Virus record (IMG/VR): IMGVR_UViG_3300041955_000143
Coordinates: 37,290-101,289 of that record
Reading direction: 5' to 3' (one strand)
DNA from: a virus
Lineage: Duplodnaviria > Heunggongvirae > Uroviricota > Caudoviricetes
DNA: 64,000 nt
Part shown: positions 1,887-64,000 of the stretch, one piece after another
Layout: each line of letters opens with the position of its first letter
Numbering within the stretch: the first letter of the stretch is position 1
Translations under genes and position numbers: made by a program
The notes under the pieces: generated by a model
Told to the model about the DNA's origin: nothing
Database searches by the model: none
What the model saw: only the letters and a program-made list of their open reading frames with translations

Positions 1887-4800
1887 TTATAGTCCAGACG
1901 GATCAATGCCCTGTTGACGTAGCCTACCTATCACGGCGTCACGCGGAGCACCACGCGCGATGGCATCACGAGCCTGACTAAGAATATCGTTAGCTGGCGC
2001 CGATCTCTCGGCAGCAGTTGGTGCCTCGCCGCCGATCCGTTCATAAGCTTCCTGTGCTTTCGGCGACAAGAATGAAATGTGATCGCGCGTCGTGCCAAAC
2101 GCTCGATCCCATTGATCAGCGACGGAATCGAGTTGGCCCTTAACTAAACGCACCAAAGTTTGATTAGCAACATGCTGTGCGTCCCGCGCCATAGTAGGAT
2201 CAAAGGCTGCAGCGCGCCACTTATCCAATTCTGCTTGTGCCGCACTACTTGACCCTTTGAACGCCTTTACTGCCTCGTCGTTCACGGCATTAGAAGCAGA
2301 TGCCACGCGCGTTAGACGCGGGTCTTGTTGATGTCTCAAAACCCAATTCCGTACTTCATTGGCATATTGCGTACCTAATCCCCACGGACCAATCGAATTG
2401 GATCTAAAATTATCCAAATCAGTCTGCGCGGCTTCTAATTCGTTCAAATGATTTGCCAAAGTATTCATTGGGCGGATGATGTTGCGCGCAGTCGGCCCCG
2501 AGGTAAATTCGCGTATTGCAGCGTTTCGTGCGGTCCAGTTAACCGCATCAAAACTCGGATCGTAAAGCGCGGCTGATTGCAACATCCCCTGCCAGAACGG
2601 TCGCGCCAATGCGAATGATGATGGCGGCGCAATCTTGCCTTGCACCATCATTTTTACAAGCGCCTGTTGCCCCGGCGTCATTCCTACTAATGCCTGATCG
2701 TTGAGTTGCTTCCCAGCAAGAGGATTCTGGAACACTTGTTCGGACAGGGTTCCTCCCTCTGGGGGCGCCACCACGGAGGTAATTCCAGATTGCCGAAGAA
2801 TCTGTGCAAGTTCCGCTTTTGCCTCTGGTGTTTCATCAGCCATCGCGACTCGCACTGATTGCGGCGTTGCTGGTGCAGTCCCTTGCGGCATATTAGCGGC
2901 AGCGGGCGCAGTAGCGGTCGGGACGGCGGGGGCGACGGTTGGAGTTGGGGATAGAGCAGGAATAGGAGAAGTTACCGGCTCGCCAATGGCGCCAGTGTTA
3001 GGATCAATACGCCTGAAAGTATTAGTTGCTGGGTCACGGATTCCATAAATGTCCTGCCCAAGCGGGCCAGTACCGATCTTTACGGGCTGCATGAGTTGAC
3101 GTCTCTCGGCAGCTTCTTTTTGAGCCAAAATCGCCCGCTGATCGGCCGTTAGATCGGTGTAAGGCCGCGTGTGCAGATCGAGTTCTGATTGCCAATGCTT
3201 GGCCTCAAGGTCTAATTTTTTGGCCTCTAAATCAATTTTTCTTTGGGTGAATCCGGCCGCTTGCTCCTGCTCTTTGAGACCTTGATAAGTCTGGGCCCCC
3301 ATCAGACCACCTTCACCGATCGCCACTCCTGGGAATGGAGAACGTGAAGCCAGCATCCCAAGACCAGCGGCCGTCAATGCTGGCCAAAGTTTAGAGTTCC
3401 CCGACCAGTCAATTCCGGCAGGCGTGGGCGAGGCTGCGGCCACTCCAGTCGGAGTAGGCGGTGCCGCGGGCGCAATGCCAGTTGGCGGCGGGGCGAAAGC
3501 GAGGGCCTGCGACGGCATACCGCCGCCCTCGAATTTGTTTTGCCACAGATTCGCAAACTGACCAGCCGTCATTCCCAAGCTGCCGCCGTTTTGTAGTACG
3601 GCATCGCGGCCGACGATGCTCGCCGCAGGCGCGTTGGGATTTGCCAAAAGGGCAAGTGCGCCGTTCGCGCCTTGCTGGTGAGCCAGATATAGCTCGGCGG
3701 CCGTAGGATCGCGGCCCAGCGCGGCGCGGAGAACCTGCTGGTTATCCCGCCCTAATCGTCCAGCCGCATCAGCGCTCGCCGCTGGGTCAGTGGGGTCATC
3801 CAAGCCGTATTGCTTGGCCGTGCTCGGAACGAATTGGAAAAGACCGCTCGCCCCGGAGAACTCATTCCTAGCGTCCGGATTGAGGCCCGATTCGATCTTG
3901 GCGGTTCTCGCCAAGTAACCAGACGGCAGGCCGTATTTGTCCTCTGTCTTGTCGAACAGGGTCGGGCTGCGCCCCGTTGAGACCTCGGGCGGCAACGCGG
4001 CCACACCAGCATCGGCATCGCTCGGGCGCGACGGCGGCAAGGGGACATCGGTGAGAACGCCGTTAGCCGCGTTGGGAGGCGGCAGCATAATCGCGGTATT
4101 GTCTGTCGGATTGATTACGCTACCCGCCCATGACGGCATATTGGTCACGTCGGAAAAGGCTTGATCGAAGTCTGGCCCTCCACCTTCCGCATAGCCGCGT
4201 GGCACCATTATCCGGTCGTGCGTCGGCAGACCGGCAATGCCGCCGGAGGCAAAACGGCCGACACCTCCGCCGTGTGCCCATCCGAGTCCGCTCTGGTCAG
4301 TACCCATACCGAATCCCGACATGTCGGCTGACACGCCAGGATTGGCCGGGGTGACGATATTGCCTTCGTATGTCGGGGCACCTCCACCGGACGGAATGTT
4401 GCCCGGCGAGACACCAACCGGCGCGTTCAGCCCTTGCTGAATGCCCTTTGCCATCTGGCCGATCTGCTGGCCTTGGACCTGCGGTTGCTGGGGTGGCTGT
4501 GGCGGCCTAGGAGGCCCAGGGCCGCGCGCTAGCGATCCGGTCGGCACATATCCAGTCCCGCCGCCATACGGCATCCCTGCCGCTCCGTAGGGGAATGCGG
4601 ATATGCCTGTGGTCTGACCGCCGCCGAGCGCAAAGCCTGGAACCTCGCCGCCTGCGGCAAAGTGTCGCGCTCTATTCGCTACACCGCCATGCCATCGGCG
4701 GATCGCGTCCTTCGTGGCCTCGTCGTAGTCGACGTGCTTGATGCCATGGACTTCATGCACGGCGTCTGGATGATGATGCTCGACGTCCTGCGCAACGAGT

Positions 4801-37033: not shown

Positions 37034-37813
37034 ATGTCCGCTTTCAGCCCGTTGTTTGGGAAAGCGCCAGAGTCGGGCCGGGTGTTGGCATGGTTTTCGT
37101 GCGGCGATGCTAGTGCCGTTGCGGCTAAGCTGGCCGTCGAAAAGTATGGTGCTCGTTGTGAAGTGCTGTATTGTGACACCTTCGCTTTTGAACACCCGGA
37201 CAACCGACGTTTTTTCAAAGACGTTGAAAAGTGGCTCGGTTGCGAAATAAAAATCCTTAAATCGCAAGACTATCGAGACATTTATGACGTTTTTGAAAAG
37301 ACCCGTTGGCTTGTTGGAGTTGGTGGAGCGCGATGCACCACGGAACTGAAAAAGAATGTTCGCCGTGCTTACCAGCGCCCGGACGACACTCATATTTTTG
37401 GCTTCACTACTGACGAGAAAAAGCGAGCCAAGCGGTTTCATGAAAACAGCCCCGACTTGTTCGCTGAATTTCCTTTGATTGACGCCAAAATAGCCAAGGC
37501 TGACTGTCATCAGCGGATGCGCGATGCGGGTATTGAACTGCCCGCCATGTACCGGCTTGGCTATAAAAACAACAACTGCATCGGATGCGTGAAGGGCCAA
37601 AGTGGGTATTGGAACAAAATTCGCCGCGACTTCCCTGAAATCTTCAACAAGATGGCTAAGCAGGAACGCAGTTTGAACGCGGCCATCAATAAAAAGTACG
37701 TTAAAGGCAAGCGCCAGCGGGTTTTCCTTGATGAATTGCCACCCACTGCCGGACGTTATGAAAGCGAAGCTGACATTGAGTGCGGCGTTATCTGTGTGAC
37801 AGCAAAGGATTAA
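37034..37813 (+). CDS. PP-loop ATP pyrophosphatase, PAPS-reductase-like family
   Basis: LAWFSCGDASAVAAKL resembles the SGGxDS PP-loop; overall size/pattern like phage PAPS-reductase/DndC/IbrA-type proteins; assignment by eye only. Confidence 0.5.
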   Translation: MSAFSPLFGKAPESGRVLAWFSCGDASAVAAKLAVEKYGARCEVLYCDTFAFEHPDNRRFFKDVEKWLGCEIKILKSQDYRDIYDVFEKTRWLVGVGGARCTTELKKNVRRAYQRPDDTHIFGFTTDEKKRAKRFHENSPDLFAEFPLIDAKIAKADCHQRMRDAGIELPAMYRLGYKNNNCIGCVKGQSGYWNKIRRDFPEIFNKMAKQERSLNAAINKKYVKGKRQRVFLDELPPTAGRYESEADIECGVICVTAKD

Positions 37814-37816
37814 GTC

Positions 37817-38884
37817 ATGGTTCACGACATTCACCAATGGGAAAAACTGCCGTTCCCGAAGTCCCTGAGAGACTTTCAACGGCTTTTCCTCGACGACGCG
37901 GCGTGCGCTCGCTATCTCGAAGGCGCAAAATGGCCGGACGGCTTTCAATGTCCGCACTGCAAAGCCCGTGGCGAGCCTGTACGCATTGCTAAACGCCCGC
38001 TTGTGCTGGCGTGTCGCAAGTGCCGCAAGCAAACCTCCCTGACGGTCGGCACGGTCATGGAAAGCACTCATACGCCGCTGACGACTTGGTTTTGGGGCGC
38101 TTACCTCATTTCCAGCATGACGCCCGGTCTGTCTGCTGTTCAATTCCAGCGCCAGCTTGGCCTTACCCGATACGAAACCGCCTTCGGCATCCTACACAAG
38201 CTTCGCGCCGGTATGGTGCGCCAAGACCGCGACCGGATCGGCGGCAGCATTTCGGGCCGGGACCATATCGAAATTGACGAAACCTATATCGGCGGCGTGC
38301 TGCGCGGCGAGGGCAAAGGCCCCCATGCCGACGAAAAGACCCTTGTGGTCGCCGCCGTCGAGGTTCGCACCCGACCGCCCAAGAAGGGCGACAAGCCGCA
38401 ACGGCGCGGCGGGCGCTATGCCGGTCGCCTTCGGCTTGAAATCGTCCCCGACCGCACCGCCAAGTCCCTGTGCGGCTTTGTAGAGGCTGCGGTTGATCCT
38501 ACGTCCAACATGGTCGTTACCGATGCTTGGGGCGGCTACAACTCGCTGGCTGATCGCGGCTACGCCCACATGCCGGTCGTCGAGTCGAACAAGCCCGATG
38601 TTGCGGAAGAATACCTGCCAATCGTTCACCTTGTTTTCAGCAACCTCAAGGCTTGGCTGCAAGGCACGCACCACGGGCGCGTCGAGCCTAAGCACCTGCA
38701 AGCCTACCTCAACGAATTTACCTTCCGCTTCAATCGCCGCTTCTACCCGTTCAACGCCTTTCGTTCGCTCTTGGGCATTGGCGCAAACGGCGAAAGCCCG
38801 ACCTATGACGGGCTGTATAGTGGCGAATGGACGCATCCGAATGTCAGTCATGGAACACATCAACCGCTAGACACTGCATGTTGA
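37817..38884 (+). CDS. IS1595-family (ISXO2-like) DDE transposase
   Basis: N-terminal transposase zinc ribbon (AKWPDGFQCPHCKARGE...CRKCRK), DDE-region motifs HIEIDETYIGG, TDAWGGYNSL, C-terminal YLNEFTFRFNRR; paralogous to 62186..63088. Confidence 0.8.
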   Translation: MVHDIHQWEKLPFPKSLRDFQRLFLDDAACARYLEGAKWPDGFQCPHCKARGEPVRIAKRPLVLACRKCRKQTSLTVGTVMESTHTPLTTWFWGAYLISSMTPGLSAVQFQRQLGLTRYETAFGILHKLRAGMVRQDRDRIGGSISGRDHIEIDETYIGGVLRGEGKGPHADEKTLVVAAVEVRTRPPKKGDKPQRRGGRYAGRLRLEIVPDRTAKSLCGFVEAAVDPTSNMVVTDAWGGYNSLADRGYAHMPVVESNKPDVAEEYLPIVHLVFSNLKAWLQGTHHGRVEPKHLQAYLNEFTFRFNRRFYPFNAFRSLLGIGANGESPTYDGLYSGEWTHPNVSHGTHQPLDTAC

Positions 38885-38934
38885 AACCGGATAAGCATGT
38901 CAACTTTGATTGGCAGAACTTCCTTCACGGCGCG

Positions 38935-39111
38935 TCATTTGATCCTCTCGTCTTCGGTGGATTTCTTTATGGCATTGGCAAATGACAAGTCCGACTGCTC
39001 TGGGATAAAGGCCGAACCGTCATCGAAACCGCGCAATAATTTCAGCGCAGCAGCCGCCTCGCGTTCCCTGTGCTGGCGCACCGGCACAATGCCTGTCCAG
39101 ACATAGATCAT
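38935..39111 (-). CDS. small hypothetical protein (58 aa)
   Basis: Hand-translated ORF MIYVWTGIVPVRQHREREAAAALKLLRGFDDGSAFIPEQ...; stop lies 35 bp from IS insertion site. Confidence 0.3.
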   Translation of the reverse strand: MIYVWTGIVPVRQHREREAAAALKLLRGFDDGSAFIPEQSDLSFANAIKKSTEDERIK

Positions 39112-39353
39112 AGCTTGAAATCCGATCTGTAGAAGCGATTATGTCCCGGTGTGATGCGTGGTTTTAGCTGTTTATCCGCCCGCAGAACCGCGTAGTGCCG
39201 GTTTATCGTCCGCGTCGAGCAGTGAAGTTTTTGCGCGACATACTGCGCTCTGTGGCCGGCGAGAAATGCGGCCTCAATCTCGGCGAGTTCTGCTGCAGTG
39301 AAATGGTCGTGGTGGTTACGGGATTTTTCCCAGGTGTCGGGGGGATGGGTCAT
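39108..39353 (-). CDS. small HTH protein (sigma70 region-4/HTH_23-like)
   Basis: FTAAELAEIEAAFLAGHRAQYVAQKLHCSTRTINRHY; ORF open to 39521 but Met57 start (39353) gives ATGA coupling to upstream gene. Confidence 0.4.
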   Translation of the reverse strand: MTHPPDTWEKSRNHHDHFTAAELAEIEAAFLAGHRAQYVAQKLHCSTRTINRHYAVLRADKQLKPRITPGHNRFYRSDFKL

Positions 39354-40381
39354 GCTGGCATCTCCCTGACCCGCAATCGTTCTGGCCATTCTGCTTGGTC
39401 TCCCCCTTTTGCGGATCGTAAGTGAAGCGGATAGCCGTCGCTCAATGGCGCGGCGCCGAGTTGCTTGACAAAACACGCAACGCCAGCAGCCTCGCATTGC
39501 GCCACGATGCTGTCGGCCCATTCGATCTGCATCGGGCGTGCATTAGGTCCACTCTCTCCACCGACGATCACCCAATCTAGCGCCGCATGCCCCGAGGTGT
39601 CGCCGCCGTTACCATCGCCGCCCCATGGGCTAAATCGTTTACCGTTTAGGCAACTCTCCCATGAATGGCCGAGGCCACCGTCAAACTCCTCGTGAATGCG
39701 CGTGAGGTCAATCGGCGCCAATAGCGGCTCCGCCGAAATAAATCGGACCGCCGCCGGCGTCTGCAATAGAAGCGGTATGCGCTCGTCGGCTTCCTGCTGG
39801 CGTTCGCAGGAGACGCCGAGCCAACAATTTTCAAGCGGCCAGCAGTAACGAATCTTTGCTGGCGTAACAGTCTCGGCGAAGGCAACATTTCGATGCGTGG
39901 CGCACTGTGCCGCAACGCGCGAGCAGACGTCTCCACCGCCGATGCTGCTCACAGTGGTATCCGACATGTAGCGGCACATTCGCTCCGCTCGCTTCGTAAG
40001 GATTTGAAAAGTGTGCTGCGGGCATAACGCGGCGATAGCCAACATCTTGTCGATCCATTCATCCTTCACGAAGTCGGCGAACAGGTCGGTCATCGAACAG
40101 ACGAAGATCATGCGCGGCTTTTTCCAGCGTAGCGGCGCCTGCAGCATTTCATCGTCGAGAAAAATTTCGACGTCCTTGCGGTGCCCCGGCTTGAACGGCA
40201 GGCCAGTGCCGAGCCGCTTGTTCATGCTCTCGGCGTAGCAAAACTCGCATCCTACCGTAGCATGTTCACAGTACCAGCCGATACGCCCCCACGGTTCGCC
40301 GTCAGACCCGACCCCCGATCGGCGAGCTCGTATTGGCGTCCATGAGGCGTCCGTCCATTCTATGTTTGAGCGGTCGCTCAT
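39350..40381 (-). CDS. phage Gp37/Gp68-family protein (DUF5131)
   Basis: N-terminal SNIEWTDASWTP...GWYCEHATVGCEFCYAE matches DUF5131 signature (IEWT..W.P..GC...S.GC..CYA). Confidence 0.6.
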   Translation of the reverse strand: MSDRSNIEWTDASWTPIRARRSGVGSDGEPWGRIGWYCEHATVGCEFCYAESMNKRLGTGLPFKPGHRKDVEIFLDDEMLQAPLRWKKPRMIFVCSMTDLFADFVKDEWIDKMLAIAALCPQHTFQILTKRAERMCRYMSDTTVSSIGGGDVCSRVAAQCATHRNVAFAETVTPAKIRYCWPLENCWLGVSCERQQEADERIPLLLQTPAAVRFISAEPLLAPIDLTRIHEEFDGGLGHSWESCLNGKRFSPWGGDGNGGDTSGHAALDWVIVGGESGPNARPMQIEWADSIVAQCEAAGVACFVKQLGAAPLSDGYPLHLRSAKGGDQAEWPERLRVREMPA

Positions 40382-41004
40382 GGCGCGGACTCCTCGACCG
40401 GCGCATTGGTTCCAGCCGCCTCGCGTTCTTTGCGAGCGAGCATTGCCAGCGCTTCGCTTCCAATGGTTTTTGGCATAAGACGGCCCCCTCGCGCACTGAA
40501 CGCGGTGAGCGTAACCCAGATGCCGGCGCGTCCGTTTTCATCCCACTTCCATTCGCGCGGGTCTACGTCTTTGCTCTGCGACCACTCCTTCATTGCCTCG
40601 TAGGCTGGAGCGTCCGCGTTGACGAAGACGTTAGCGAAGGCACCTTGGCCTTCCCGCACCGGAGTTCCGTATCCGGGCACAAACTTGGGCATTGCTCGAT
40701 AGCGCGCCAAGGTCTCTCGGCGCGCCATCTCTTCCTCGCAGGCCGCCACAACTTTCGCGATCGACGGAGGAAAATCGGATTTCCGCTGCAGGCCGGTGCG
40801 CGGATCGGTGACGGCGACGATAACTGCTGGATCATATTTTTCCAACACGACGCCAAGTTGAGCGACAAAGCCTTCCGGGTCGGCAAAGTCATCGCGGCGG
40901 TAGGCGGAAAAGAGGACCTTCACTTGTTTGGTTATCAAGACGGCTTTCGAGATCCCCTTGTAATCTGTCGATTGCGTCGAGGAGTGATCCATTCCTTTTG
41001 CCAT
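40378..41004 (-). CDS. hypothetical protein (208 aa)
   Basis: ORF; start uncertain (overlaps next ORF by ~115 bp). Confidence 0.4.
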   Translation of the reverse strand: MAKGMDHSSTQSTDYKGISKAVLITKQVKVLFSAYRRDDFADPEGFVAQLGVVLEKYDPAVIVAVTDPRTGLQRKSDFPPSIAKVVAACEEEMARRETLARYRAMPKFVPGYGTPVREGQGAFANVFVNADAPAYEAMKEWSQSKDVDPREWKWDENGRAGIWVTLTAFSARGGRLMPKTIGSEALAMLARKEREAAGTNAPVEESAP

Positions 41005-41230
41005 TTACCTTCCCTTGTTGCTTTGAGACTCGGCGCATCCAACCTTTGAATGCCATCGACCAATTCGACTTGCGAGCTATTTGCCTGTTCGCGTTTGCGC
41101 CAGCCCACAAGCGCATATCTTCGGCCATTTCGTTGATTCGGTCGTCCGAGAGGTGCAAGATGCGGTGACCATAATCGCGATCATCGTTCGAGGGTAACCA
41201 ATCATCCGGCAACGCCAATCCTCGCGCCAT
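40889..41230 (-). CDS. hypothetical protein (~113 aa)
   Basis: ORF open to 41422; Met65 start abuts RNase H stop; overlap with 40378..41004 means one of the two starts is wrong. Confidence 0.25.
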   Translation of the reverse strand: MARGLALPDDWLPSNDDRDYGHRILHLSDDRINEMAEDMRLWAGANANRQIARKSNWSMAFKGWMRRVSKQQGKVNGKRNGSLLDAIDRLQGDLESRLDNQTSEGPLFRLPPR

Positions 41231-41231
41231 T

Positions 41232-41744
41232 TTATGCCGCCTCCGGCTGAATCCTAAACTCAATACCGCTTTTGTGTAGTTCAGCTTTCGAGAGTTCGTC
41301 GGCGATTGAATTGTGTTCGCGGCCGATCCACGTCCCATGAAGTGCGCGAAATTTTTTAACTTTCTCGCGAGCGGCCCTAGCGTATTCAGCGTAGAAGCCG
41401 CCCTTGATTTTCCAGCTTCCAAAACATTGTTGGATGACTAGGTTCGAATCGCCCTTGACCAAAATCAATTCGCTGGTCAGGCCGCGCTCAATGAACCAAT
41501 CGAGAATAGCGGTGAAGGCGAGATATTCGGCGACGTTATTTGAGGTCTGCGGTGACGCGGGAATCATCCCCGAAGTCTGCCACACCAGATCGCCGTTTTT
41601 GAAAATAACCGCGCCGTACCCTGCGGTTCCCCCTGGATTGCGGGGCTCGCAGCACCCATCGAAGAAAGCGATATAGGCACCCATCGATTCGGCATATCTC
41701 ACCGCGTTTTCGTCCGTTCGCACCCGCGCTCGTCTTCGCTTCAT
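41232..41744 (-). CDS. rnhA: ribonuclease H (RNase HI-like)
   Basis: FDGCC..NPGGTAGYGAVI, VAEYLAFTAILDW, ELILVKGDSNLVIQQ, REHNSIADELSKAEL match RNase H catalytic motifs. Confidence 0.65.
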   Translation of the reverse strand: MKRRRARVRTDENAVRYAESMGAYIAFFDGCCEPRNPGGTAGYGAVIFKNGDLVWQTSGMIPASPQTSNNVAEYLAFTAILDWFIERGLTSELILVKGDSNLVIQQCFGSWKIKGGFYAEYARAAREKVKKFRALHGTWIGREHNSIADELSKAELHKSGIEFRIQPEAA

Positions 41745-46345: not shown

Positions 46346-47235
46346 GTATGCAAGCCGAAAACCCGCGCGCCGTAGTCGGGTCAAATCAAGCTCCCGAGTA
46401 CGCGCAGCGCGTCACCGACCAGATGGCGCGCGACTATGAGGCCCTGACGCAAGGCGTGGCCGCACTCTTGGAAGAGGCCCGCGGGAAGCCAGTCGAGGTC
46501 ACGACAGATGACGTGGCGCTCGACGTCGGGGCGCTTATCAAGCGATTGGGCGATGCCGACAAGCGCGCCGAGGCTTTCCGGATTGCGGAAGGCGAACCTT
46601 TCCTTCGGGGCAAGAACGCCGTCGACCAGTTCTTTTTCGCGATTCGGGACAAACTCGGGCGTCGGAACAAGAACGACAGGTCGGCGAAGCCTGGGGCAAT
46701 CGACATCTTGCAGGCCCGCGTCTCCTCCTTCCTCGAGCGAAAACGGATCGAAGAGCAGGCCAGACGCGACCGAGAGGCTGCGGAACAGGCCCGCATTGCC
46801 CGGGAGAAGGCCGCTGAGGACGAGAGAGCTCGGCTGGCGGCTGAGGAGGCCAGACTAGCCGCAGAACGCGCTAGGGCCCCCGCCAAGGTCGAGGAGAAGG
46901 CCGCTATTGCCGAGAAAGCCGAGGAACAGGCGTCCGTCGCCAGCGCCGAGGCCGCAATCGCCGCCGAGCGCGCCCAAGAGGCCCATATCGCCACCCTCGC
47001 CAAGCCGGCCGAAATGGCCCGCACCCGCGGCGATGACGGCGTGCTTCTGACGCTCGCCAAGGAAAATTACGCCATCATGGTCGACCGCTCAAAGCTCGAC
47101 ATGGCAAAACTCTGGCCATTTTTCACCGACAGCGAGGTCGAAAAGGCGCTTCGGGCTTGGGCTAAAAACACCGGCTATACGCAACCGATGGCCGGAGCCG
47201 AGATCGGGCGCAAAAATAAGGGCGTGACCCGATGA
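46333..47235 (+). CDS. coiled-coil protein (300 aa), charged Ala/Glu/Arg repeats
   Basis: ERARLAAEEARLAAERARAPAKVEEKAAIAEKAEEQ. Confidence 0.4.
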   Translation: MSPMSMQAENPRAVVGSNQAPEYAQRVTDQMARDYEALTQGVAALLEEARGKPVEVTTDDVALDVGALIKRLGDADKRAEAFRIAEGEPFLRGKNAVDQFFFAIRDKLGRRNKNDRSAKPGAIDILQARVSSFLERKRIEEQARRDREAAEQARIAREKAAEDERARLAAEEARLAAERARAPAKVEEKAAIAEKAEEQASVASAEAAIAAERAQEAHIATLAKPAEMARTRGDDGVLLTLAKENYAIMVDRSKLDMAKLWPFFTDSEVEKALRAWAKNTGYTQPMAGAEIGRKNKGVTR

Positions 47236-48254
47236 CCGACCAAATTTGCAGCTATCAGACTTACGGCTCCAACAGCATGCGCCTGATCTGTCCAGGTCCG
47301 TCGACATGGGACTTCGGGGGCATGCCAGAGCCGATAGTGTGGCTTGGAATTGTGGTCGGCGGACTGTTCGCGGCGTTTCTGGCATTTCTGATCCTGCGGG
47401 CACTGATACGGTCAGGAGTTTTCGTGGTGAGGCAGCAAAGCCGCGCCGTCATTGAGCGCTTCGGCAAATATCACCGCACCGCAGTTCCCGGTTTGCGCTT
47501 CAAACTGCCCGTCATCGACCAGATCGTGAAAACCCAATGGCTGCGGATATTCCAGTTGGCGATCGAGGCCGATACCAAAACCAAGGACAACGTGTTTGTC
47601 GTCGCTCATGTCTCGGTACAGTACCGCATCATTCCAGAACGTGCCTCAGAGGCTTGGTACATGCTGCAGGATGCCGAGAGGCAGATGACCTCGTTTGTTC
47701 TGGACAATGCCCGCTCCACTATCCCCGCAATGACCCTTGATGAGGTGTTCGAGCATAAGGACCGCATCGCCACCGCCGCGAAGGAAGCGCTGACGGAGAA
47801 AATGCACGGCTACGGCTACGAAATCACCGATGTTCTCGTAACCGAGATCGACCCGGCGGCCAACGTCAAGGACGCAATGGATCAAATCCAGACGCAACAG
47901 CGCCTACAGGTCGCGGCACAGGCGAAGGGCGAAGCCAACAAAATCCTGATCGTCAAAGGCGCCGAGGCGGAGGCGGAGTCGAAACGGTTGCAGGGCGTGG
48001 GCATTGCCAACCAGCGCCGCGCCATCGTCGAAGGACTCAAGGATTCGGTAGATAGTCTGCGAGCGGCTACCGGCGTAGACCCAGCCGAGGCAACGCGAAT
48101 GGTCGTGCTGACTCAATACTTCGACACCATCAAAGAGATCGGCGTGTCAGCGGGCGCCAAGGTGATCTTCCAGCCCAGTTCGCCCTCGGGAATGACCGAT
48201 ATGCTGGCGCAAATTCGTACCGCCGTTATGTCGGCGGAAGAGGCGACACGATGA
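47232..48254 (+). CDS. SPFH/band-7 (stomatin/prohibitin-like) membrane protein
   Basis: N-terminal TM (IVWLGIVVGGLFAAFLAFLIL) followed by SPFH-type body and Ala/Glu-rich coiled coil; start may be Met31 (47322). Confidence 0.6.
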   Translation: MTDQICSYQTYGSNSMRLICPGPSTWDFGGMPEPIVWLGIVVGGLFAAFLAFLILRALIRSGVFVVRQQSRAVIERFGKYHRTAVPGLRFKLPVIDQIVKTQWLRIFQLAIEADTKTKDNVFVVAHVSVQYRIIPERASEAWYMLQDAERQMTSFVLDNARSTIPAMTLDEVFEHKDRIATAAKEALTEKMHGYGYEITDVLVTEIDPAANVKDAMDQIQTQQRLQVAAQAKGEANKILIVKGAEAEAESKRLQGVGIANQRRAIVEGLKDSVDSLRAATGVDPAEATRMVVLTQYFDTIKEIGVSAGAKVIFQPSSPSGMTDMLAQIRTAVMSAEEATR

Positions 48255-49364: not shown

Positions 49365-50303
49365 ATGACCAGAACCAAGACTAAGGACCGCCCCGATACG
49401 CTTCTATTTGGCGATGCCGAGATTGAACTGCCGCCAAAATCTGAGGGCGATGCGCCTGGACCGTCCCCGCTCGCGGTCAAGGCCACACCTAGCGCATCCG
49501 AAAGTGGCCGGGGCCAGCCCTCGCCAGCAAAGAAACCGACAAAGAACGCTGTGGCGAAGGTCGAACGGCTTCCGGCGCCGATGAACGTGCTAGACGCGCT
49601 CGCCGCCGCGTTGAAAAACCCCGACGTCGACCCTGTGAAGATGCGGGAGCTCTATAAGCTATACCAAGAAACCGAGGCGAAACAGCAGTTCCACGATGCG
49701 CTGCTTGCCATCGACTTTCCGAGCATCAACCGCGACGGCAAGATTCCGGTCAAGGGCGGGAGGGACCTTCGGTTTGCTTCCTTCGAGAATGTCCATAAGG
49801 CCGTCATGCCCCTGCTTCGGCAGCACCGATTCCGCATGTCCTTCGCACCGATGCCGGGCGAGAACGGAACCGGCCTCGTTGTCGAATGTCGGCTGATCCG
49901 CGGGACCTACGAGGAAAAATGCGTTGTCCCGATCAGCACGGCGCCGGCAAGCCGCGCGATGAACTCGCAGCAAGCGATCGGCGCCGCGATCAAGTATGCC
50001 TCCCGCTACGGGGTAATGTACTTGTTAAACCTTCGCTCCGAAGCGCCAGAGGACCGCGACACTGATGGCGTCCACCCGCAGGAGGTCGCCGAGCAAGAAG
50101 CGGCCAACGCGACCATCAACGGCTCGCAGGCTAAAAAACTCCTAGAAGCCATCAACGATAGTGGAATCGAAGCAACCCGCTTCATGGAAAAGTACGGAAT
50201 CAAAGCCGTCCATGAACTCCCGACCAAGCTCTTCGACGAAGCCATGAAGGCGCTGCGGGATTACGGGGCGCGCAGGGCCGCCCAGGAAAAGAACGCCCAA
50301 TGA
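49365..50303 (+). CDS. erf: ERF-family single-strand annealing protein
   Basis: FASFENVHKAVMPLLRQHRF and surrounding pattern typical of ERF superfamily. Confidence 0.6.
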   Translation: MTRTKTKDRPDTLLFGDAEIELPPKSEGDAPGPSPLAVKATPSASESGRGQPSPAKKPTKNAVAKVERLPAPMNVLDALAAALKNPDVDPVKMRELYKLYQETEAKQQFHDALLAIDFPSINRDGKIPVKGGRDLRFASFENVHKAVMPLLRQHRFRMSFAPMPGENGTGLVVECRLIRGTYEEKCVVPISTAPASRAMNSQQAIGAAIKYASRYGVMYLLNLRSEAPEDRDTDGVHPQEVAEQEAANATINGSQAKKLLEAINDSGIEATRFMEKYGIKAVHELPTKLFDEAMKALRDYGARRAAQEKNAQ

Positions 50304-56771: not shown

Positions 56772-57854
56772 TCACGCCCGCATCTTGTTGCCGCGCCACG
56801 AGAAGTCCTTCCTTGTCCATGCGATGCAGTAGATCCACGGGATCAGAATATCCCGCAACGCCATCGCCGGAATCATCCTCCACGAGCAGTGCCATCCCTT
56901 CGACCACGCCAGCAGCATCTCAGAACCATACCATGATGCCATCGCCACCGCGACAAGTGATGGAAGCGCCCAGCCGAACGACGCGATCATCAGAACTGGA
57001 ACGACCGCGGTGGATGCCAACTCAGCGGCGAACGGCACCGGGAAGGTCTTGCGGCGAAGGATCGCCCATCTCATCTGACGGTCGAGAACCTGCCGGAATG
57101 TTCTGTGTCCAAGAAGCTGCGGGAACGGCGCACTGACCAGCCTCACCCGCAGCCCGGCAGCGCGCACCACCTTGGTCGCGGCGGCGTCCTCGCAGACCTC
57201 GCTGGCGAGCGCCTCCACGCCGCCCCAGGAGTCCAGCAGCTTGCGGTCCCACAGCATCACCTTGCCCATCCCGAAGCCGTGGCCGAAGGCGTCGGCAACG
57301 AATTGCCAGCGCGCCTGGTAGGTGTTGAGGAAGGCGCATTCAAGCTCGGCGGCGAAGCTCTCCGGCCGCGAGCCGAGAGGCGGGGAGCATACTAGCCCCA
57401 CGTCCGGCGCCCACCGTGAGATCATCTGGTCCACCGCGTCCGGCGGCAGCAGCACGTTCGAGTCGGCCATCATCACGTAGCTCGCGTGACTGGCAGCGCG
57501 CCACCCCTTGGCCACGTTATTCAGCTTTGGGTTATCACTGATAGCATCGTCACCAATCAGCAGCATGGCGCGCCGGTGTCGTCCGACGATCTCCCCAGCA
57601 AGTTGCATGCCGCCGTCATCCCTGCTGGCGATGCAGAAGTAGACATTTGCGTCGTCACGGGAAAACGAGGACTCTAGCGTCTCCGGGTCGTGCTCCTCGC
57701 GCCCCGCGATCGGGCGGATGATGGCGACCGGGCCGTACTCACTCACCACCTTGGTCCCGGTACGGATACGAAGTCCGGCGACCAGGGTACTCAGGAGGTT
57801 GACGGCAATAACGATCGATGCGGCAACGAGGATCAGCGAGGCCATTAGCTCCAT
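56772..57854 (-). CDS. membrane glycosyltransferase (GT2/GT21 ceramide-glucosyltransferase-like)
   Basis: N-terminal TM then GT-A-type region; ORF open to 58091 but first 79 codons overlap upstream gene, Met80 (MELMASLILV) taken as start. Confidence 0.5.
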   Translation of the reverse strand: MELMASLILVAASIVIAVNLLSTLVAGLRIRTGTKVVSEYGPVAIIRPIAGREEHDPETLESSFSRDDANVYFCIASRDDGGMQLAGEIVGRHRRAMLLIGDDAISDNPKLNNVAKGWRAASHASYVMMADSNVLLPPDAVDQMISRWAPDVGLVCSPPLGSRPESFAAELECAFLNTYQARWQFVADAFGHGFGMGKVMLWDRKLLDSWGGVEALASEVCEDAAATKVVRAAGLRVRLVSAPFPQLLGHRTFRQVLDRQMRWAILRRKTFPVPFAAELASTAVVPVLMIASFGWALPSLVAVAMASWYGSEMLLAWSKGWHCSWRMIPAMALRDILIPWIYCIAWTRKDFSWRGNKMRA

Positions 57855-57912
57855 TTGCGCGGGACGATACAGTCGCCACCAGTCTGCATGAGCAAAATTG
57901 ACCACTTCGGCT

Positions 57913-58689
57913 TCAGTGTCCGCGTATCGAAATCCAGGTGATAAGCGGCGTAAGGATAGCTGCCGCGATGAATATAGCACCAGCAGCCCACTGAAAGACC
58001 TGGCTCTGCCCGGCCTGCGTCCCCTTGTTCGATGTCTCCTCCAAGTTGATCTTGTTGACGTTGAACGACAGCTTCGCAATTGCCTCCGCATTTGCTGCCG
58101 CCGTTTTCGCCAGCATCTCTGCCGTCGATGCCGAAAGCGCCGAGATACTCTCCGACATCTTCTTCATCGCATTCTCGATCGCCGGGTCCGCGACGCTGCT
58201 CCGTCCCGCAAGGGTGAATTGGAATGCCTCCAACTTGCTGACGCGGGCGTCAAACGTGGCCTGAATTTGGACGAGCTGAGTTGACACTAGGGTAGAGGTC
58301 GTTCGCACCGACTCAGCAAGCATGTCCCGGATGGTGTTCTGAAACTCTTGCCGGGTCTGAGCAAGCTGGTCGATCCTATTGGTTTCGGCTTGGCGCAGCG
58401 CCGTCTGCAATTTCGACTCCGCCTCGCGGGCAAAGTCTTGCATCCTAGACTCTGCCTCACGGGCGAAGTTCTGCAGCTTCTCCTGAGCAATGAGGTTTGC
58501 GTCAAGGAACCTGTTGTCGGCAACGCGCAGTTCGTGCTGGTGCTCCTTCTCGACATCGACAAGCGCCAACACGTTCTCAGTCGGATCGACGACGGGGCCG
58601 CCGCTAGCGTCGACGCCGATCCCCATCCCAGTCTGGACAGGACGACGAGTCTGTCGTTTCTTTCTGCTGCTGCTGCTGCTGCTGCTCAT
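57913..58689 (-). CDS. coiled-coil protein with C-terminal membrane anchor and N-terminal poly-Ser
   Basis: MSSSSSSSRKKRQ... (AGC)8 run at 58661..58684; C-terminal TM AAGAIFIAAAILTPLITWISI. Confidence 0.45.
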   Translation of the reverse strand: MSSSSSSSRKKRQTRRPVQTGMGIGVDASGGPVVDPTENVLALVDVEKEHQHELRVADNRFLDANLIAQEKLQNFAREAESRMQDFAREAESKLQTALRQAETNRIDQLAQTRQEFQNTIRDMLAESVRTTSTLVSTQLVQIQATFDARVSKLEAFQFTLAGRSSVADPAIENAMKKMSESISALSASTAEMLAKTAAANAEAIAKLSFNVNKINLEETSNKGTQAGQSQVFQWAAGAIFIAAAILTPLITWISIRGH

Positions 58690-58928: not shown

Positions 58929-59132
58929 TCACTTGGGGCTGTCTGCCAGTTCTAACCATTGAGACAGTTGGTCGGCAAATGCCTGAGCTTGAGTCTTGTC
59001 GGGGAATCCAATCACTTCCGCTAAGACATTGATTGTTATCTTACGGGGGTCATCGGTATTGGGCATCGTAATGACCTTGAACCTATCTGGCATCATGCGA
59101 ACCCCACCAACTTCGATGTTTGTTTCACCCAC
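58929..59132 (-). CDS. hypothetical protein (67 aa)
   Basis: Small ORF. Confidence 0.3.
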   Translation of the reverse strand: MGETNIEVGGVRMMPDRFKVITMPNTDDPRKITINVLAEVIGFPDKTQAQAFADQLSQWLELADSPK

Positions 59133-59572
59133 CCTAGTTCGACTAACGCAAGCTCGGCATCACCAGCATACCGTACCCCACCAACGCACACTGGGCGAGT
59201 CTCCAGTAAATTCATGGCCTCGACGGCAGTGAACCCTTGCGCCCTCATTATAGCATACCCTAATGATGGGCCCCTGTTCCTGCCCTCCGCACAATGCGTC
59301 AGCACAATGTTTCCCTTGAACGACAGCGCACCAATTCCAAAATCAATCGCGGACATGAACCAAGAAGCGCCCTTGTGTGTGCCGTCGTCTTTAGTCGTAT
59401 CGACCAATAGTGCAATGCCATTAGTCGGAGGGAATAGCGGTTCCTCACCATCAATGTTGGCGTCTATTACGTGAGTGATACCCAACGCTTTAATATCGGC
59501 AACATTGGAAGCATCCGTAATTCGACTACCGACATACAGCCTCTCGGTTATCCGGCTGCAGTCGTATGTCAT
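59093..59572 (-). CDS. dual-specificity/tyrosine protein phosphatase
   Basis: VLTHCAEGRNRGPS contains the HCxxGxxR P-loop signature. Confidence 0.55.
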   Translation of the reverse strand: MTYDCSRITERLYVGSRITDASNVADIKALGITHVIDANIDGEEPLFPPTNGIALLVDTTKDDGTHKGASWFMSAIDFGIGALSFKGNIVLTHCAEGRNRGPSLGYAIMRAQGFTAVEAMNLLETRPVCVGGVRYAGDAELALVELGWVKQTSKLVGFA

Positions 59573-60629: not shown

Positions 60630-61002
60630 CCGCGGCCGCGCCGAGCCGACGCCTACGAAGCATCATTCTGGCTCCAACCGGGATCGACGGCAGGAGGTTT
60701 GTCAGCGCCGCAATAACGGCGTTCACCGCCGCACTGCCGGCCACAACAATTGCGCTGTAGGCAGGCCCGAACAGACCAGCCGCAGTCGCCGCAATGCTCT
60801 CGATAGTGGGGGCATAGTTTGCTACGGCCTGCACTACGTTCGTGATTGCGGTGATAACGGCCGGGTCAAGCCCGTAAGTGACGACGCCAGTGGTAGGGTT
60901 AGTGGTCGAGGCGCAGCCGCCAAGAGCGAGGACGCCAGCACCGGCACCGAGCGAAAACAGGTGACGGCGAGTAATATCGGTCTGCATTGTATTTCCTTTC
61001 AC
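60553..61002 (-). CDS. Tat-signal lipoprotein candidate
   Basis: TRRHLFSLGAGAGVLALGGC twin-arginine plus lipobox. Confidence 0.4.
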   Translation of the reverse strand: MKGNTMQTDITRRHLFSLGAGAGVLALGGCASTTNPTTGVVTYGLDPAVITAITNVVQAVANYAPTIESIAATAAGLFGPAYSAIVVAGSAAVNAVIAALTNLLPSIPVGARMMLRRRRLGAAAVGTLRGYVKVPAANGGFSYIPVYAQ

Positions 61003-61223
61003 TTGTTGGTGACGCCGGGGCCGGCGACATTCGACGAGAAGAAGTGGAATCCAAGGTTAATGCAGGTGAGAATGAAGGCGGCATCCGTCGCCACTGTTTT
61101 GATGTCGGATACTATGGCGGGAGAGAGGCTGCCAAATTGCACGCTGCCAGCCGCAATTCCGGTAAGGATAGCGAAGATGACGTTCAGCCAGATGGCTGTG
61201 GCCGGGTTGATTCCGTTCTGCAT
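60999..61223 (-). CDS. small membrane protein (74 aa)
   Basis: Two hydrophobic helices. Confidence 0.35.
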   Translation of the reverse strand: MQNGINPATAIWLNVIFAILTGIAAGSVQFGSLSPAIVSDIKTVATDAAFILTCINLGFHFFSSNVAGPGVTNK

Positions 61224-61986: not shown

Positions 61987-62185
61987 CTGTCTATCTCCTA
62001 GTTATGACCCGGTAACACCGTCGCGCCCCGGCATACCTTCCACCATTCCGCAGTGCGCGGTACGTCCGGGGAACACCAATGTCGTAAAGGCGGCGATGTG
62101 CGCCAACCTGAATGATGGGCGATTATCCCGGACTTGACAGAAGCCTCTAGGCATGGCAATATCCTTCTATTGAAGGGGAAAAGCC

Positions 62186-63088
62186 ATGGCCAAACGACCC
62201 AAGCCCGTCCCGCAGATGACCGCCGCTCAGTTCGACGCGGCCTTTCCTGACGAAGAAGCCTGCAAAGCCTATCTGGTTGCCCGTAGATGGCCCGATGGCG
62301 TGCATTGCCCGCGCTGCGGCAATCCCAAGGTCTATGACCTGAGGTCGCGCCGGTGGCATTGGCAATGCGAACAGTGCGCCCCTGACGGCTATCGGTTTTC
62401 TCATATCGCCGGGACGATCTTCGAGAACACCAACAAGCCGCTCCGCGATTGGTTCAAGGTCGCCCATCTCATGCTCGCCAGCAAGAAAGGCATGAGTGCC
62501 TTGCAGATCATGCGCTACATGGGATTCGGCTCCTACAAAACCGCATGGGGCATGTGTCACAAGATCAGAACTGCGTTGATCGAGGACATTCAGAAGCTCG
62601 GCGGGATTGTCGAGGTTGACGAGTCGTTCATCGGCGGCAAAGACAAAAACAAACATTGGGACGGTCGCAAGCGCGAACCGCGAGAGCATCGCCTTTCGAC
62701 TAAAACTCCGGTCATTGGCGCAGTACAGCGCAAGGGCAACGTAGTTGCCCGCGTTCTCGACCACATCAGCAGCGCGGCTTGTCAGACATTCGTGCGCGAA
62801 ATGGTTTCCGACAAAGTCAGCTTGCTCGCGACCGACGAAAGTCGCGTCTATGACGGATTGACCGGATACAATCACCAAACGGTCGATCACCACCGTAAGC
62901 AATATGTCATCGGCGCGGTTCACACCAACACGATTGAGGGCTTCTGGTCGATCTTCAAGCGCGGCGTGGTCGGCACGTTCCACAAGATGAGCGCCAAATA
63001 TATGCCGCTGTACATCGCCGAGTTTCAGTTCCGCTACAATAACCGCATGAACCCCGACATTTTCGGGACGGCGATTTCTGGATGTTAG
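62186..63088 (+). CDS. IS1595-family DDE transposase
   Basis: RWPDGVHCPRCGN zinc ribbon, IVEVDESFIGGK, TDESRVYDGL, YIAEFQFRYNNR; paralog of 37817..38884. Confidence 0.8.
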   Translation: MAKRPKPVPQMTAAQFDAAFPDEEACKAYLVARRWPDGVHCPRCGNPKVYDLRSRRWHWQCEQCAPDGYRFSHIAGTIFENTNKPLRDWFKVAHLMLASKKGMSALQIMRYMGFGSYKTAWGMCHKIRTALIEDIQKLGGIVEVDESFIGGKDKNKHWDGRKREPREHRLSTKTPVIGAVQRKGNVVARVLDHISSAACQTFVREMVSDKVSLLATDESRVYDGLTGYNHQTVDHHRKQYVIGAVHTNTIEGFWSIFKRGVVGTFHKMSAKYMPLYIAEFQFRYNNRMNPDIFGTAISGC

Positions 63089-63090
63089 CT

Positions 63091-63858
63091 TCATTTTTCG
63101 GAGATACCAAATTCGTATTCTGGCACGTCATAGTTTTTGATTTCCATTAATGTAACGACAAAGGTACGACCAGATGCTTGAACGTCGTGGCTAGTTTGAT
63201 TGTTAAAACTGAATTTAAACTTTTTCTGATTTGGCGCTGACGTATAGACTTGAAGGTCTCGGACTTTTACGCCAGGAAGGTCTTTGTCTGGGAATTTCAT
63301 TGGAGTTGCATTTTGTATTAATGTTATTTCGCTCGCAGTCTCCGGCTCGGAAACATCTGTACGTAATGTCCCGGCATTGTCCAAATTCAACGTATCGTTT
63401 CCACCCACGCTAGTTGGAATATTTTTGATGGTTTGCTTGCTGGAATAGTGATGAGAGGATGCCGCGGAAATTAACTTCGCTAGATCAGCAAACGTAATTG
63501 GCCTCTGATAATTGGCCGCTTCAAACGACCCGAGACCCAGAAGCAACACACCAAAAATTCCCGAGAAAATAAGTCTATTTTTCCATGTAATTGGCTGTGG
63601 CAGTAGAAATGTTATCGCTACCCCTACCAACCACGCCAAAGCTAGAAGTATTAGCGCGAGGGTCATTGTAACAATCCCCGCCGCTGACAAGGATGCGATA
63701 ATGCAAGCAGTGGCAAACGTGGCGAGGAGAGCAAATGCTGCGTTTGCCAAAATGTCTCTAAATGTGCCTGTTGGCTTTGTGATTTTCTGTAATCCCCTTT
63801 GGCGTTGCCTTTCGAGATTCCTCCGTTGCTGGCGCGTAAGCGTCTTATTCCGCGACAT
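63091..63858 (-). CDS. passenger membrane protein (255 aa): basic N-terminus, 3-4 TM helices, ~130-aa C-terminal soluble domain; AT-rich codon usage
   Basis: Hydrophobic helices read from translation; markedly lower GC than surrounding DNA. Confidence 0.5.
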   Translation of the reverse strand: MSRNKTLTRQQRRNLERQRQRGLQKITKPTGTFRDILANAAFALLATFATACIIASLSAAGIVTMTLALILLALAWLVGVAITFLLPQPITWKNRLIFSGIFGVLLLGLGSFEAANYQRPITFADLAKLISAASSHHYSSKQTIKNIPTSVGGNDTLNLDNAGTLRTDVSEPETASEITLIQNATPMKFPDKDLPGVKVRDLQVYTSAPNQKKFKFSFNNQTSHDVQASGRTFVVTLMEIKNYDVPEYEFGISEK

Positions 63859-64000
63859 GGCAGAATCCTTCCTCTTTGGGATTGTACCTCCAAAGAGGGT
63901 TCCCGCAGAACGGGAACAAGATTTTGGGAGACGTTTTTTCCCTGATGACAGAGCAGTGATAGTGCATTATACTGCTTCTGTCTAGTTAGGGATAATCGCC

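What the first reader, a model, noticed from the sequence alone, without database searches (positions are those of the whole stretch)
62118..64000. Second IS1595-family element with an AT-rich membrane-protein passenger; window ends at its outer inverted repeat
It uses different TIRs from the first element (GGCGATTATCCC...ACAGAAGC at both ends, 23/27 matching) and a paralogous zinc-ribbon DDE transposase. A convergently oriented, strongly AT-biased gene encodes a 255-aa membrane protein. The passenger looks horizontally acquired and could be an abortive-infection or exclusion-type membrane effector. The sequence stops exactly at the last base of the right IR, which suggests an assembly break at a repeated IS copy.
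Basis: partly seen in the sequence, partly recalled or inferred. Interest (0 to 1): 0.55.

Follow-up and report, generated by a model that had tools for sequence, protein, structure and literature searches.

The report
Cargo-carrying IS1595 insertion sequence in phage
This is a complete 1.9-kb jumping gene of a known type (IS1595 family) sitting in a phage genome; it carries one extra gene for a membrane protein of unknown function, and its relatives carry unrelated, mostly membrane-protein genes in the same slot.

Summary
Window 62118-64000 is a complete 1,883-bp IS1595-family element. It has 27-nt terminal inverted repeats (24/27 matching, not 23/27), an intact 300-aa zinc-ribbon/DDE transposase, and a convergent, low-GC 255-aa membrane-protein gene. 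Metagenome contigs that run past the window end show the same 8 bp (GAATGATG) on both sides, so the whole unit, cargo included, inserted as one piece. The insertion lies between small genes of a phage or prophage.

This is a "transporter IS" (tIS), a kind already described for the IS1595 family. The cargo has three transmembrane helices and a confidently predicted C-terminal beta domain. That domain defines an uncharacterised family (253 cluster representatives) with no match in Pfam, NCBIfam, PHROGs, PADLOC, PDB or BFVD. The abortive-infection/exclusion idea has no support.

Wider pattern: in about 45 related elements, DNA homology ends near the transposase stop codon and resumes only at the right end. 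The slot between holds unrelated ORFs. In 39 of 45 elements the longest slot ORF has an N-terminal hydrophobic segment, against 26% of flanking ORFs.

Verdict: a new member of a known kind, with an interesting cargo pattern across the clade.

The parts
62110..62117 (.). Left copy of the 8-bp target-site duplication, GAATGATG. The right copy lies just beyond the window end.
   Evidence: Contigs L001 and L002 continue past the right IR with GAATGATG, identical to 62110-62117.
62118..62144 (+). Left terminal inverted repeat (IRL), GGCGATTATCCCGGACTTGACAGAAGC. It contains a TTGACA (-35-like) hexamer at 62134-62139 pointing towards the transposase gene.
   Evidence: The motif GGCGAT(T/G)(A/T)T..CTTGAC recurs at the ends of about 45 related elements. 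The promoter role is inferred only.
62186..63088 (+). IS1595-family transposase, 300 aa. Features read from the sequence: CxxC...CxxC zinc ribbon (C41, C44, C61, C64) and candidate catalytic D144, D216, E250 (K257 at +7; E278/R282).
   Evidence: Pfam PF12760 and PF12762; NCBIfam NF033547 at 205.9 bits. There are thousands of homologues, the closest 96% identical, in Xanthobacteraceae and other alphaproteobacterial MAGs. The catalytic residues were read from the sequence by eye.
63091..63858 (-). Cargo (passenger) gene, 255 aa. It has an Arg/Lys-rich N-terminal helix, three TM helices (about 33-59, 65-85, 92-116), and an all-beta C-terminal domain (about 139-254) that ends in the conserved FGISEK.
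   Evidence: AlphaFold2 gives mean pLDDT 85, and about 95 in the beta domain. The family has 253 cluster representatives at E<=1e-3. P0002 is 45% identical over the full length. There are no hits in Pfam, NCBIfam, PHROGs or PADLOC.
63859..63973 (-). Conserved right-end leader between IRR and the cargo start codon. It holds two adjacent hairpins: 63871-63879 paired with 63890-63898, and 63899-63905 paired with 63911-63917. The start-proximal hairpin includes AGAGG just upstream of the likely ribosome-binding site.
   Evidence: The leader is about 80% identical in L095, L097 and L093, which carry unrelated cargo; homology stops at the ATG. L039 shares the hairpin part. The RNA fold is -40.1 kcal/mol with z = -3.2. 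Covariation support is minimal with only 5 sequences.
63945..63973 (+). Outward-facing sigma-70-like motif, ATGACA-N17-TATACT, next to the IRR. On the other strand the same bases read TATAAT towards the cargo gene.
   Evidence: The consensus scan scored 10/12, but 2.0 such sites are expected by chance in this region. The hexamers are conserved in the 4-sequence alignment A5. Function is not shown.
63974..64000 (-). Right terminal inverted repeat (IRR), GGCGATTATCCCTAACTAGACAGAAGC read on the minus strand. Its last base is the last base of the window.

Best explanation
Window 62118-64000 is a complete, probably still mobile, 1,883-bp transporter insertion sequence (tIS) of the IS1595 family. 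Its end sequence and motifs resemble the ISNwi1 group.

Mobility. The single zinc-ribbon/DDE transposase recognises the 27-nt terminal inverted repeats and moves everything between them. The insertion leaves an 8-bp target duplication. Here the element landed in an intergenic stretch of a phage or prophage. On its right are an endolysin, an HNH endonuclease and a 59-aa ORF. On its left are a 68-aa ORF and a run of other small ORFs. All of these lie on the minus strand.

Cargo. The element carries one gene, convergent with the transposase and co-directional with the surrounding phage genes. Its product is an inner-membrane protein. By the positive-inside rule the basic N-terminus is cytoplasmic, three TM helices follow, and a roughly 120-aa beta domain of an uncharacterised family faces the periplasm. 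Expression is probably from the conserved 115-nt right-end leader or by read-through of phage transcripts.

Modularity. The cargo is an exchangeable module. In relatives, the backbone (IRL to the transposase stop) and the right end are conserved, while the ORF between them is replaced by unrelated genes, mostly for membrane-anchored proteins.

Shown: the anatomy, the TSD, family membership, the modular replacement, and the membrane-protein enrichment.

Inferred: activity, topology, the promoter, and any function. My best guess for the function (about 0.25) is an envelope-acting accessory protein that benefits the carrier, for example by excluding a competing phage, element or toxin.
For: - TIRs are 24/27, with none expected by chance.
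- The transposase has the IS1595 domains.
- The 8-bp TSD GAATGATG is seen once the contig is extended.
- The identical element (100% nt) is present in four assemblies.
- Phage context: terminase, portal, ejection protein and ERF in the window; endolysin and HNH endonuclease in the right flank.
- Cargo structure: 3 TM helices plus a high-confidence beta domain.
- The cargo family is real: 253 representatives.
- Other family members sit next to IS1595 ends or transposase remnants: L098, L006-9, L005 and P0177.
- About 45 related elements have the same architecture, many with perfect 8-bp TSDs.
- In all 28 pairwise comparisons of close relatives, homology ends within about 25 nt of the transposase stop; in 10 of them a second block resumes in the last 26-145 nt.
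- The cargos are unrelated to each other by blastp and to the window's cargo family by hhalign.
- 39 of 45 longest slot ORFs have an N-terminal hydrophobic segment, against 54 of 207 flanking ORFs; Fisher p = 3.6e-14.
- tIS are described as a class restricted to the IS1595 and IS66 families (bioRxiv 10.1101/2021.05.26.445724; PMC3129680).
Against: - Only one insertion site of this exact element is documented. The different 2-nt flank in L003/L004 is too short to prove a second copy, so current activity is unproven.
- No canonical promoter for the cargo was found on its own strand.
- Covariation for the leader hairpins is minimal.
- Cargo function has no homology or fold support at all.
- The ORF choice in relatives was mechanical (longest ORF) and the TM calls are a simple hydropathy threshold.
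- The ISNwi1-group assignment rests on my memory of the ISfinder group definitions. It was not compared with reference sequences.
Confidence: 0.85

Rival explanations
1. The cargo is an anti-phage abortive-infection or superinfection-exclusion membrane effector, spread by the IS and, here, by a phage.
For: - It is a small membrane protein with a probably periplasmic domain, carried on mobile elements and located in a phage.
- It is co-oriented with the phage genes, like a moron.
- Cargo in the clade is hyperdiverse and membrane-biased, as expected for conflict genes.
Against: - No match in PADLOC or PHROGs.
- No homologue in 50,697 phage records.
- Three of the six family members whose larger contexts I inspected (L099, L100, L101-L104) show no IS1595 ends or transposase remnant; L106 and L107 were not scanned for these.
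Confidence: 0.15
2. The cargo serves the IS itself, as a regulator of transposition or as an addiction/toxicity module that stabilises the element.
For: - Nearly every member of the clade keeps one extra ORF in the same slot.
- The leader is conserved, with hairpins that could gate translation.
Against: The extra ORFs are unrelated in sequence, occur in both orientations (20 plus, 25 minus) and range widely in size. That is hard to reconcile with a conserved role in transposition. No antitoxin-like partner or second ORF is present.
Confidence: 0.08
3. This is not one element. On this view a roughly 1-kb IS lies next to a phage or host gene, and the distal IR is a solo IR or MITE end.
For: Canonical IS1595-family members are about 1 kb (general knowledge). 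Decayed versions with a lone IR next to a cargo homologue do exist (L006-9, L098).
Against: - The 8-bp duplication brackets the full 1,883 bp.
- There is no IR-like sequence near the transposase stop.
- About 45 relatives have the same length class, with TSDs around the whole unit.
- The cargo's GC differs from both the IS backbone and the phage.
Confidence: 0.03

Closest known systems
IS1595-family transporter IS (tIS), ISNwi1 group with passenger genes (ISfinder; Siguier, Gagnevin & Chandler 2009, cited in PMC3129680, PMC7986276 and bioRxiv 10.1101/2021.05.26.445724)
   Same: It has a single zinc-ribbon + DDE_Tnp_IS1595 transposase, GG-starting TIRs, an 8-bp TSD, and a non-transposition gene inside the IRs. 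The ends (GGCGATTAT) and the DDE-K/E-R4 spacing fit what I recall of the ISNwi1 group.
   Different: It is not close to any plasmid-borne copy (at most 43% aa identity in PLSDB). The clade occurs in uncultured soil and peat Alphaproteobacteria. I found no description in the searchable literature of the ORF-precise cargo replacement, the conserved leader, or the strong bias towards membrane-anchored cargo. The 2009 paper itself could not be read.
Integron gene cassettes
   Same: There is one fixed slot with conserved flanks, filled by many unrelated, mostly uncharacterised small ORFs.
   Different: There is no integrase, attI or attC. The slot lies inside a DDE transposon, and cargo occurs in both orientations. 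How the exchange happens is unknown; homologous recombination between the conserved backbone and right end is the simplest guess.
Phage morons and superinfection-exclusion membrane proteins (e.g. P22 SieA, T4 Imm/Sp)
   Same: It is a small membrane protein gene of atypical GC, inserted between phage genes and co-oriented with them.
   Different: No sequence or fold similarity was found. It was delivered by an IS rather than being an autonomous moron with its own promoter and terminator.
Three-TM plus beta-sandwich architecture of coronavirus/torovirus M proteins
   Same: The overall layout is the same: three TM helices followed by a beta domain. These proteins appear among the weak Foldseek hits.
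   Different: The matches are far from significant: E of about 0.26-0.9 and TM-scores of about 0.15, and a Pfam Flavi_M hit at E 0.23. I treat this as a resemblance of architecture only, not homology.

Membership tests
IS1595 family (insertion sequences) | Transposase with the DDE_Tnp_IS1595 catalytic domain | tested here: met
   PF12762 E 5.4e-39 over the full model; NCBIfam NF033547 at 205.9 bits against a cutoff of 75.
IS1595 family (insertion sequences) | N-terminal zinc-ribbon (Zn_ribbon_IS1595), present in all groups except IS1016 (PMC8101967) | tested here: met
   PF12760 E 3.6e-12, residues 21-64. The CxxC...CxxC motif is visible in the sequence.
IS1595 family (insertion sequences) | Terminal inverted repeats | tested here: met
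   27-nt TIRs, 24/27 matching, starting with GG.
IS1595 family (insertion sequences) | 8-bp target-site duplication (PMC8101967) | tested here: met
   GAATGATG on both sides after extension with L001/L002. Perfect 8-bp TSDs flank 16 or more of the related elements.
ISNwi1 group of IS1595 | Group-specific end sequence and catalytic motif (recalled from ISfinder: ends ggnnatTAT; DDEK plus E-R4), and phylogenetic placement with ISNwi1 | tested here: inconclusive
   The ends (GGCGATTAT), E250...K257 and E278...R282 fit. However, the definitions are from memory, and no ISfinder reference sequence was available for comparison.
Transporter IS (tIS) | IS-like element carrying one or more passenger genes unrelated to transposition inside its IRs (bioRxiv 10.1101/2021.05.26.445724) | tested here: met
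   The 255-aa cargo ORF lies between the transposase stop and the IRR, and the TSD brackets the whole unit. The cargo is unrelated to transposases.
Transporter IS (tIS) | Demonstrated transposition of the whole unit | not testable with these tools
   Only one insertion site is documented. The intact transposase, TIRs and TSD suggest activity but do not prove it.
Known anti-phage defence / abortive-infection systems | Homology to a protein of a described defence system | tested here: not met
   PADLOC gave 0 families for the cargo and for two homologues at E<=1.
Known phage protein families (including superinfection exclusion and holins) | Match to a PHROG or to a phage genome | tested here: not met
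   PHROGs gave nothing for the cargo and only E of 0.2 or worse for its homologues. tblastn against 50,697 phage records found no match. The best BFVD Foldseek E is 0.016 with TM 0.25.

The most novel reading that the evidence does not exclude
This ISNwi1-like clade of soil Alphaproteobacteria may work as a dedicated shuttle for a hypervariable pool of envelope proteins. On this reading there is a single cargo slot, bounded by the transposase stop codon and a conserved structured leader. Unrelated membrane-anchored genes are swapped into it ORF-precisely. The cargos would be conflict genes, such as phage or mobile-element exclusion factors, immunity to periplasm-acting toxins, or surface remodelling proteins. 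The window's 3-TM/FGISEK-domain protein would be one such module, here passed on to a phage.
Probability: 0.2. Interest if true: 0.75.

Novelty: new member of a known kind. Interest (0 to 1): 0.42.

Why it matters
As a single locus it is ordinary: a well-formed tIS of a family for which cargo-carrying members are already recognised.

It is worth a note for three reasons.

1. It shows an IS delivering a foreign membrane-protein gene into a phage genome. That is a two-step route for gene spread.

2. It anchors an uncharacterised C-terminal domain family (253 cluster representatives, confidently foldable, no known relative). Five members of that family, counting the window's own cargo, lie in or beside IS1595 elements or their remnants.

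3. The comparison set reveals a clade-wide rule: one slot, ORF-precise replacement, and about 87% membrane-anchored cargo. If the cargos turn out to be conflict or envelope genes, these small elements would be an overlooked vehicle for such genes in soil bacteria.

Tried and rejected
- blastn of the element against PLSDB plasmids found no match.
- Exact-pattern scans of IMG/VR for the IS right end and for the reconstructed empty site found no match. I therefore could not show an empty site.
- The AFDB50 fold library was unavailable.
- Pfam weak hits DMAP1 and Flavi_M (E 0.16-0.23) were rejected.
- hhalign of the cargo family profile against all other slot ORFs gave probabilities below 1%, so the idea of one fast-evolving family was not supported.
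- The leader hairpins were tested for covariation with 5 sequences. This was too few: 2 pairs showed compensatory changes.
- A holin reading of the cargo was considered, because an endolysin lies nearby in the right flank. I set it aside because the gene lies inside the IS, is 255 aa with a large beta domain, and has homologues in non-phage contexts.
- TIRs of the first IS1595 element (37817-38884) were not found by a quick inverted-repeat scan, and I did not pursue this.
- Siguier et al. 2009 is not held in the library, so the group definitions are from memory.

Full report
**1. The observation**

Window 62118-64000 is bounded by 27-nt inverted repeats, 62118-62144 and 63974-64000. A degenerate IR pattern finds only these two sites in the 64 kb, and none in 100 shuffles.

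Between the repeats lie two convergent ORFs whose stop codons are separated by 2 nt.
- 62186-63088 (+) encodes a 300-aa protein. It matches Pfam Zn_ribbon_IS1595 (E 3.6e-12) and DDE_Tnp_IS1595 (E 5.4e-39, full model). It also matches NCBIfam "IS1595 family transposase" at 205.9 bits against a cutoff of 75.
- 63091-63858 (-) encodes 255 aa with no Pfam family.

The cargo gene has 44.7% GC (GC3 43.8%). The transposase has 56.5% (GC3 72.4%) and the window as a whole 57%. The other IS1595 transposase in the window (37817-38884) is only 30% identical and lacks these TIRs. The window ends on the last base of the right IR.

**2.

The exact cargo protein is encoded on four short metagenome contigs, all 100% identical to the window over the shared DNA. 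Two of them (L001, L002) run 1.9-2.2 kb beyond the window end.

In window orientation the right flank begins GAATGATG. This is the same 8 nt that precede the left IR at 62110-62117. An 8-bp TSD is the family norm (PMC8101967). So the whole 1,883-bp unit, cargo included, inserted as one piece. The cargo is not a resident gene that merely sits next to an IS.

Two other contigs (L003, L004) start 2 nt outside the right IR, with AC instead of GA. L001 and L002 break inside the transposase. Assemblers therefore repeatedly break at this element. That fits a repeated or polymorphic IS, but 2 nt cannot prove a second copy.

**3. Context**

The window is a phage or prophage. It encodes:
- a large terminase subunit;
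- an SU10-like portal;
- a 1,311-aa DNA-ejection/transglycosylase protein;
- virion and tail-fibre proteins;
- an ERF recombinase.

The sequence beyond the IS encodes an HNH endonuclease and an endolysin. The IS lies in an intergenic stretch between a 59-aa ORF and a 68-aa ORF. All flanking genes are on the minus strand, so the cargo is co-oriented with phage transcription and the transposase is antisense to it. No intrinsic terminator was predicted inside the element.

**4. The cargo protein**

AlphaFold2 was run on an 87-sequence alignment and gave mean pLDDT 85. The model has:
- a basic N-terminal helix (residues 4-26);
- three TM helices (33-59, 65-85, 92-116);
- a short helix;
- an all-beta domain (139-254) with pLDDT of about 95.

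By the positive-inside rule the Arg/Lys-rich N-terminus and the KNR loop after TM2 are cytoplasmic. That places the beta domain in the periplasm. This topology is an inference.

The C-terminal roughly 125 aa carry the motifs LNLDN, RTFVV.L and EY.FGISEK at the C-terminus. A profile of this region finds 253 cluster representatives at E<=1e-3 among 1.84 billion proteins, 146 of them at 1e-10. The domain is almost always at the extreme C-terminus of proteins of 140-300 aa.

Nothing known matches it.
- Pfam, NCBIfam, PHROGs and PADLOC gave no hits.
- 50,697 phage genomes gave no tblastn hit.
- The best Foldseek E is 0.17 against PDB and 0.016 against BFVD.

**5. The cargo family and IS1595**

Several other family members are linked to IS1595 elements.
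- P0273 (L098) has the same IRR plus hairpin leader upstream. Directly downstream is a 21-aa transposase remnant, 86% identical to the window's transposase.
- P0004 (L006-L009) has the IRR upstream but no transposase.
- P0002, 45% identical over the full length (L005), is followed by a 33-aa IS1595 transposase C-terminal remnant.
- P0177 is a fusion of a transposase fragment to the domain.

Other members lie in ordinary chromosomal or other contexts. L099, L100 and L101-L104 were scanned and show no IS ends or transposase remnant. L106 and L107 were not scanned for these; the Pfam listing of their neighbouring genes shows no transposase.

**6. The clade**

The transposase has thousands of homologues, the closest 96% identical. 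A genome scan returned 79 loci. Nearly all are alphaproteobacterial MAGs from soil and peat, Xanthobacteraceae among them.

A script delimited about 45 elements by GGCGAT(T/G)(A/T)T..CTTGAC-type TIRs, and at least 16 of them have perfect 8-bp TSDs. Element lengths are 1.44-2.47 kb, median 1,934 bp. That leaves 450-1,480 bp between the transposase stop and the IRR in essentially every element.

This slot holds one ORF of about 110-390 aa, in either orientation (20 plus, 25 minus). The ORFs fall into a few small families plus many singletons. None is related to the window's cargo by tblastn or by profile comparison. None has a Pfam domain, apart from nested IS copies.

Among eight close relatives (DNA 76-87% identical over the backbone), all 28 pairwise comparisons behave alike. 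Homology runs from the IRL to within about 25 nt of the transposase stop and then vanishes. In 10 of the 28 pairs a second block of homology resumes in the last 26-145 nt.

For L095, L097 and L093 the conserved right end extends across the whole 115-145-nt leader at about 80% identity. It stops at or near the cargo start codon, although their cargos are unrelated.

The longest slot ORF has a hydrophobic 19-mer in its first 120 aa in 39 of 45 elements. The figure for flanking ORFs from the same loci is 54 of 207 (Fisher p = 3.6e-14).

**7. The leader**

As RNA, the leader folds into two adjacent hairpins: -40.1 kcal/mol, z = -3.2 against shuffles. The start-proximal hairpin overlaps purine-rich sequence just upstream of the ATG. 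Gating of translation is possible but unproven, and covariation data are too thin.

The only sigma-70-like match faces outward on the plus strand at 63945-63973. The same bases read TATAAT towards the cargo. The promoter is therefore unresolved.

**8. Comparison with known systems**

ISs that carry passenger genes are called transporter ISs. They were defined on the IS1595 family (Siguier et al. 2009, as cited in PMC3129680 and PMC7986276). [quoted passage not shown]

The element meets every family criterion I could test. Its ends (GGCGATTAT) and its D144/D216/E250-K257/E278-R282 pattern fit my recollection of the ISNwi1 group. I could not check this against ISfinder, so I report it as inconclusive.

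The element is therefore a new member of a known kind. I did not find the ORF-precise cargo replacement, the conserved leader or the membrane-protein bias described in the searchable literature. The key 2009 paper was not readable, so I do not claim these as new.

**9. Function**

The mobility mechanism is well supported. The cargo's function is not known.

My best guess, at about 0.25, is an envelope-acting accessory protein that benefits the carrier. The grounds are the periplasm-facing domain, the carriage on mobile elements and a phage, and the diversity of slot genes.

**10. Verdict**

This is an ordinary but well-formed tIS with a cargo family of unknown function. It sits within an IS clade whose cargo pattern deserves a systematic look.

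Noticed in passing
L097, L098, L006-L009, L093 (related loci): The intergenic region between an HTH+shikimate-kinase-like gene and hemY is occupied by elements of this IS clade in several related genomes. L097, L098 and L006-9 share the same site and orientation but carry different cargo. L093 has an element next to hemY with the IRR end towards hemY, the opposite of L098; its other flank was not seen. This points either to an insertion hot spot or to an old insertion whose cargo was later exchanged.
   Followed up: partly
L093 (reverse-complement coordinates 123-1046 and 2967-3080): A right end about 80% identical to the window's (IRR plus leader) is paired with a transposase only 36% identical to the window's. 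The slot is also much longer, about 1.9 kb, and includes a 587-aa membrane-protein ORF. The right-end module may therefore move between distant IS1595 backbones.
   Followed up: no
L105 (P0177) and L005 1123-1257: There are rearranged versions. In P0177 a transposase fragment is fused in frame to the cargo C-terminal domain. In L005 a 33-aa transposase C-terminal remnant lies downstream of the P0002 cargo on the same strand, whereas the window's arrangement is convergent.
   Followed up: partly
L010 3933-3970, L011 6971-7009, L097: In some relatives the terminal 12 nt (GGCGATTATCCC) recur as an inverted copy 25-60 nt inside the end. This makes the IS tip palindromic. In the window's right end the feature is only vestigial.
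   Followed up: no
window 37817-38884: This is the first IS1595-family transposase: 355 aa, 30% identical to the second, NCBIfam 187.7 bits. A quick inverted-repeat scan of 37300-41600 found no convincing TIRs. A DUF5131 gene (39350-40381) lies just downstream.
   Followed up: partly
window 59093-59572 (-): This 159-aa ORF contains HCAEGRNRG, which looks like the HCX5R signature of dual-specificity/tyrosine phosphatases. It has no PHROG match.
   Followed up: no
window 56772-58091 (-): A family-21 glycosyltransferase (PF13506, E 2.5e-49) lies inside the phage region. It may be a moron that modifies the host envelope.
   Followed up: no
window 47232-48254 (+) and 49365-50303 (+): The phage encodes an SPFH/Band-7 protein and an ERF-family recombinase.
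   Followed up: no
window 60999-61223 (-): A 74-aa ORF with two hydrophobic stretches lies about 0.9 kb left of the IS, and an endolysin lies in the right flank (L001 3-845). It could be the phage's holin. If so, the IS sits within or beside the lysis region.
   Followed up: no
L004 1035-1048: This contig diverges from the IS sequence inside the transposase gene for its last 14 nt. It is either a variant copy or a chimeric contig end.
   Followed up: no
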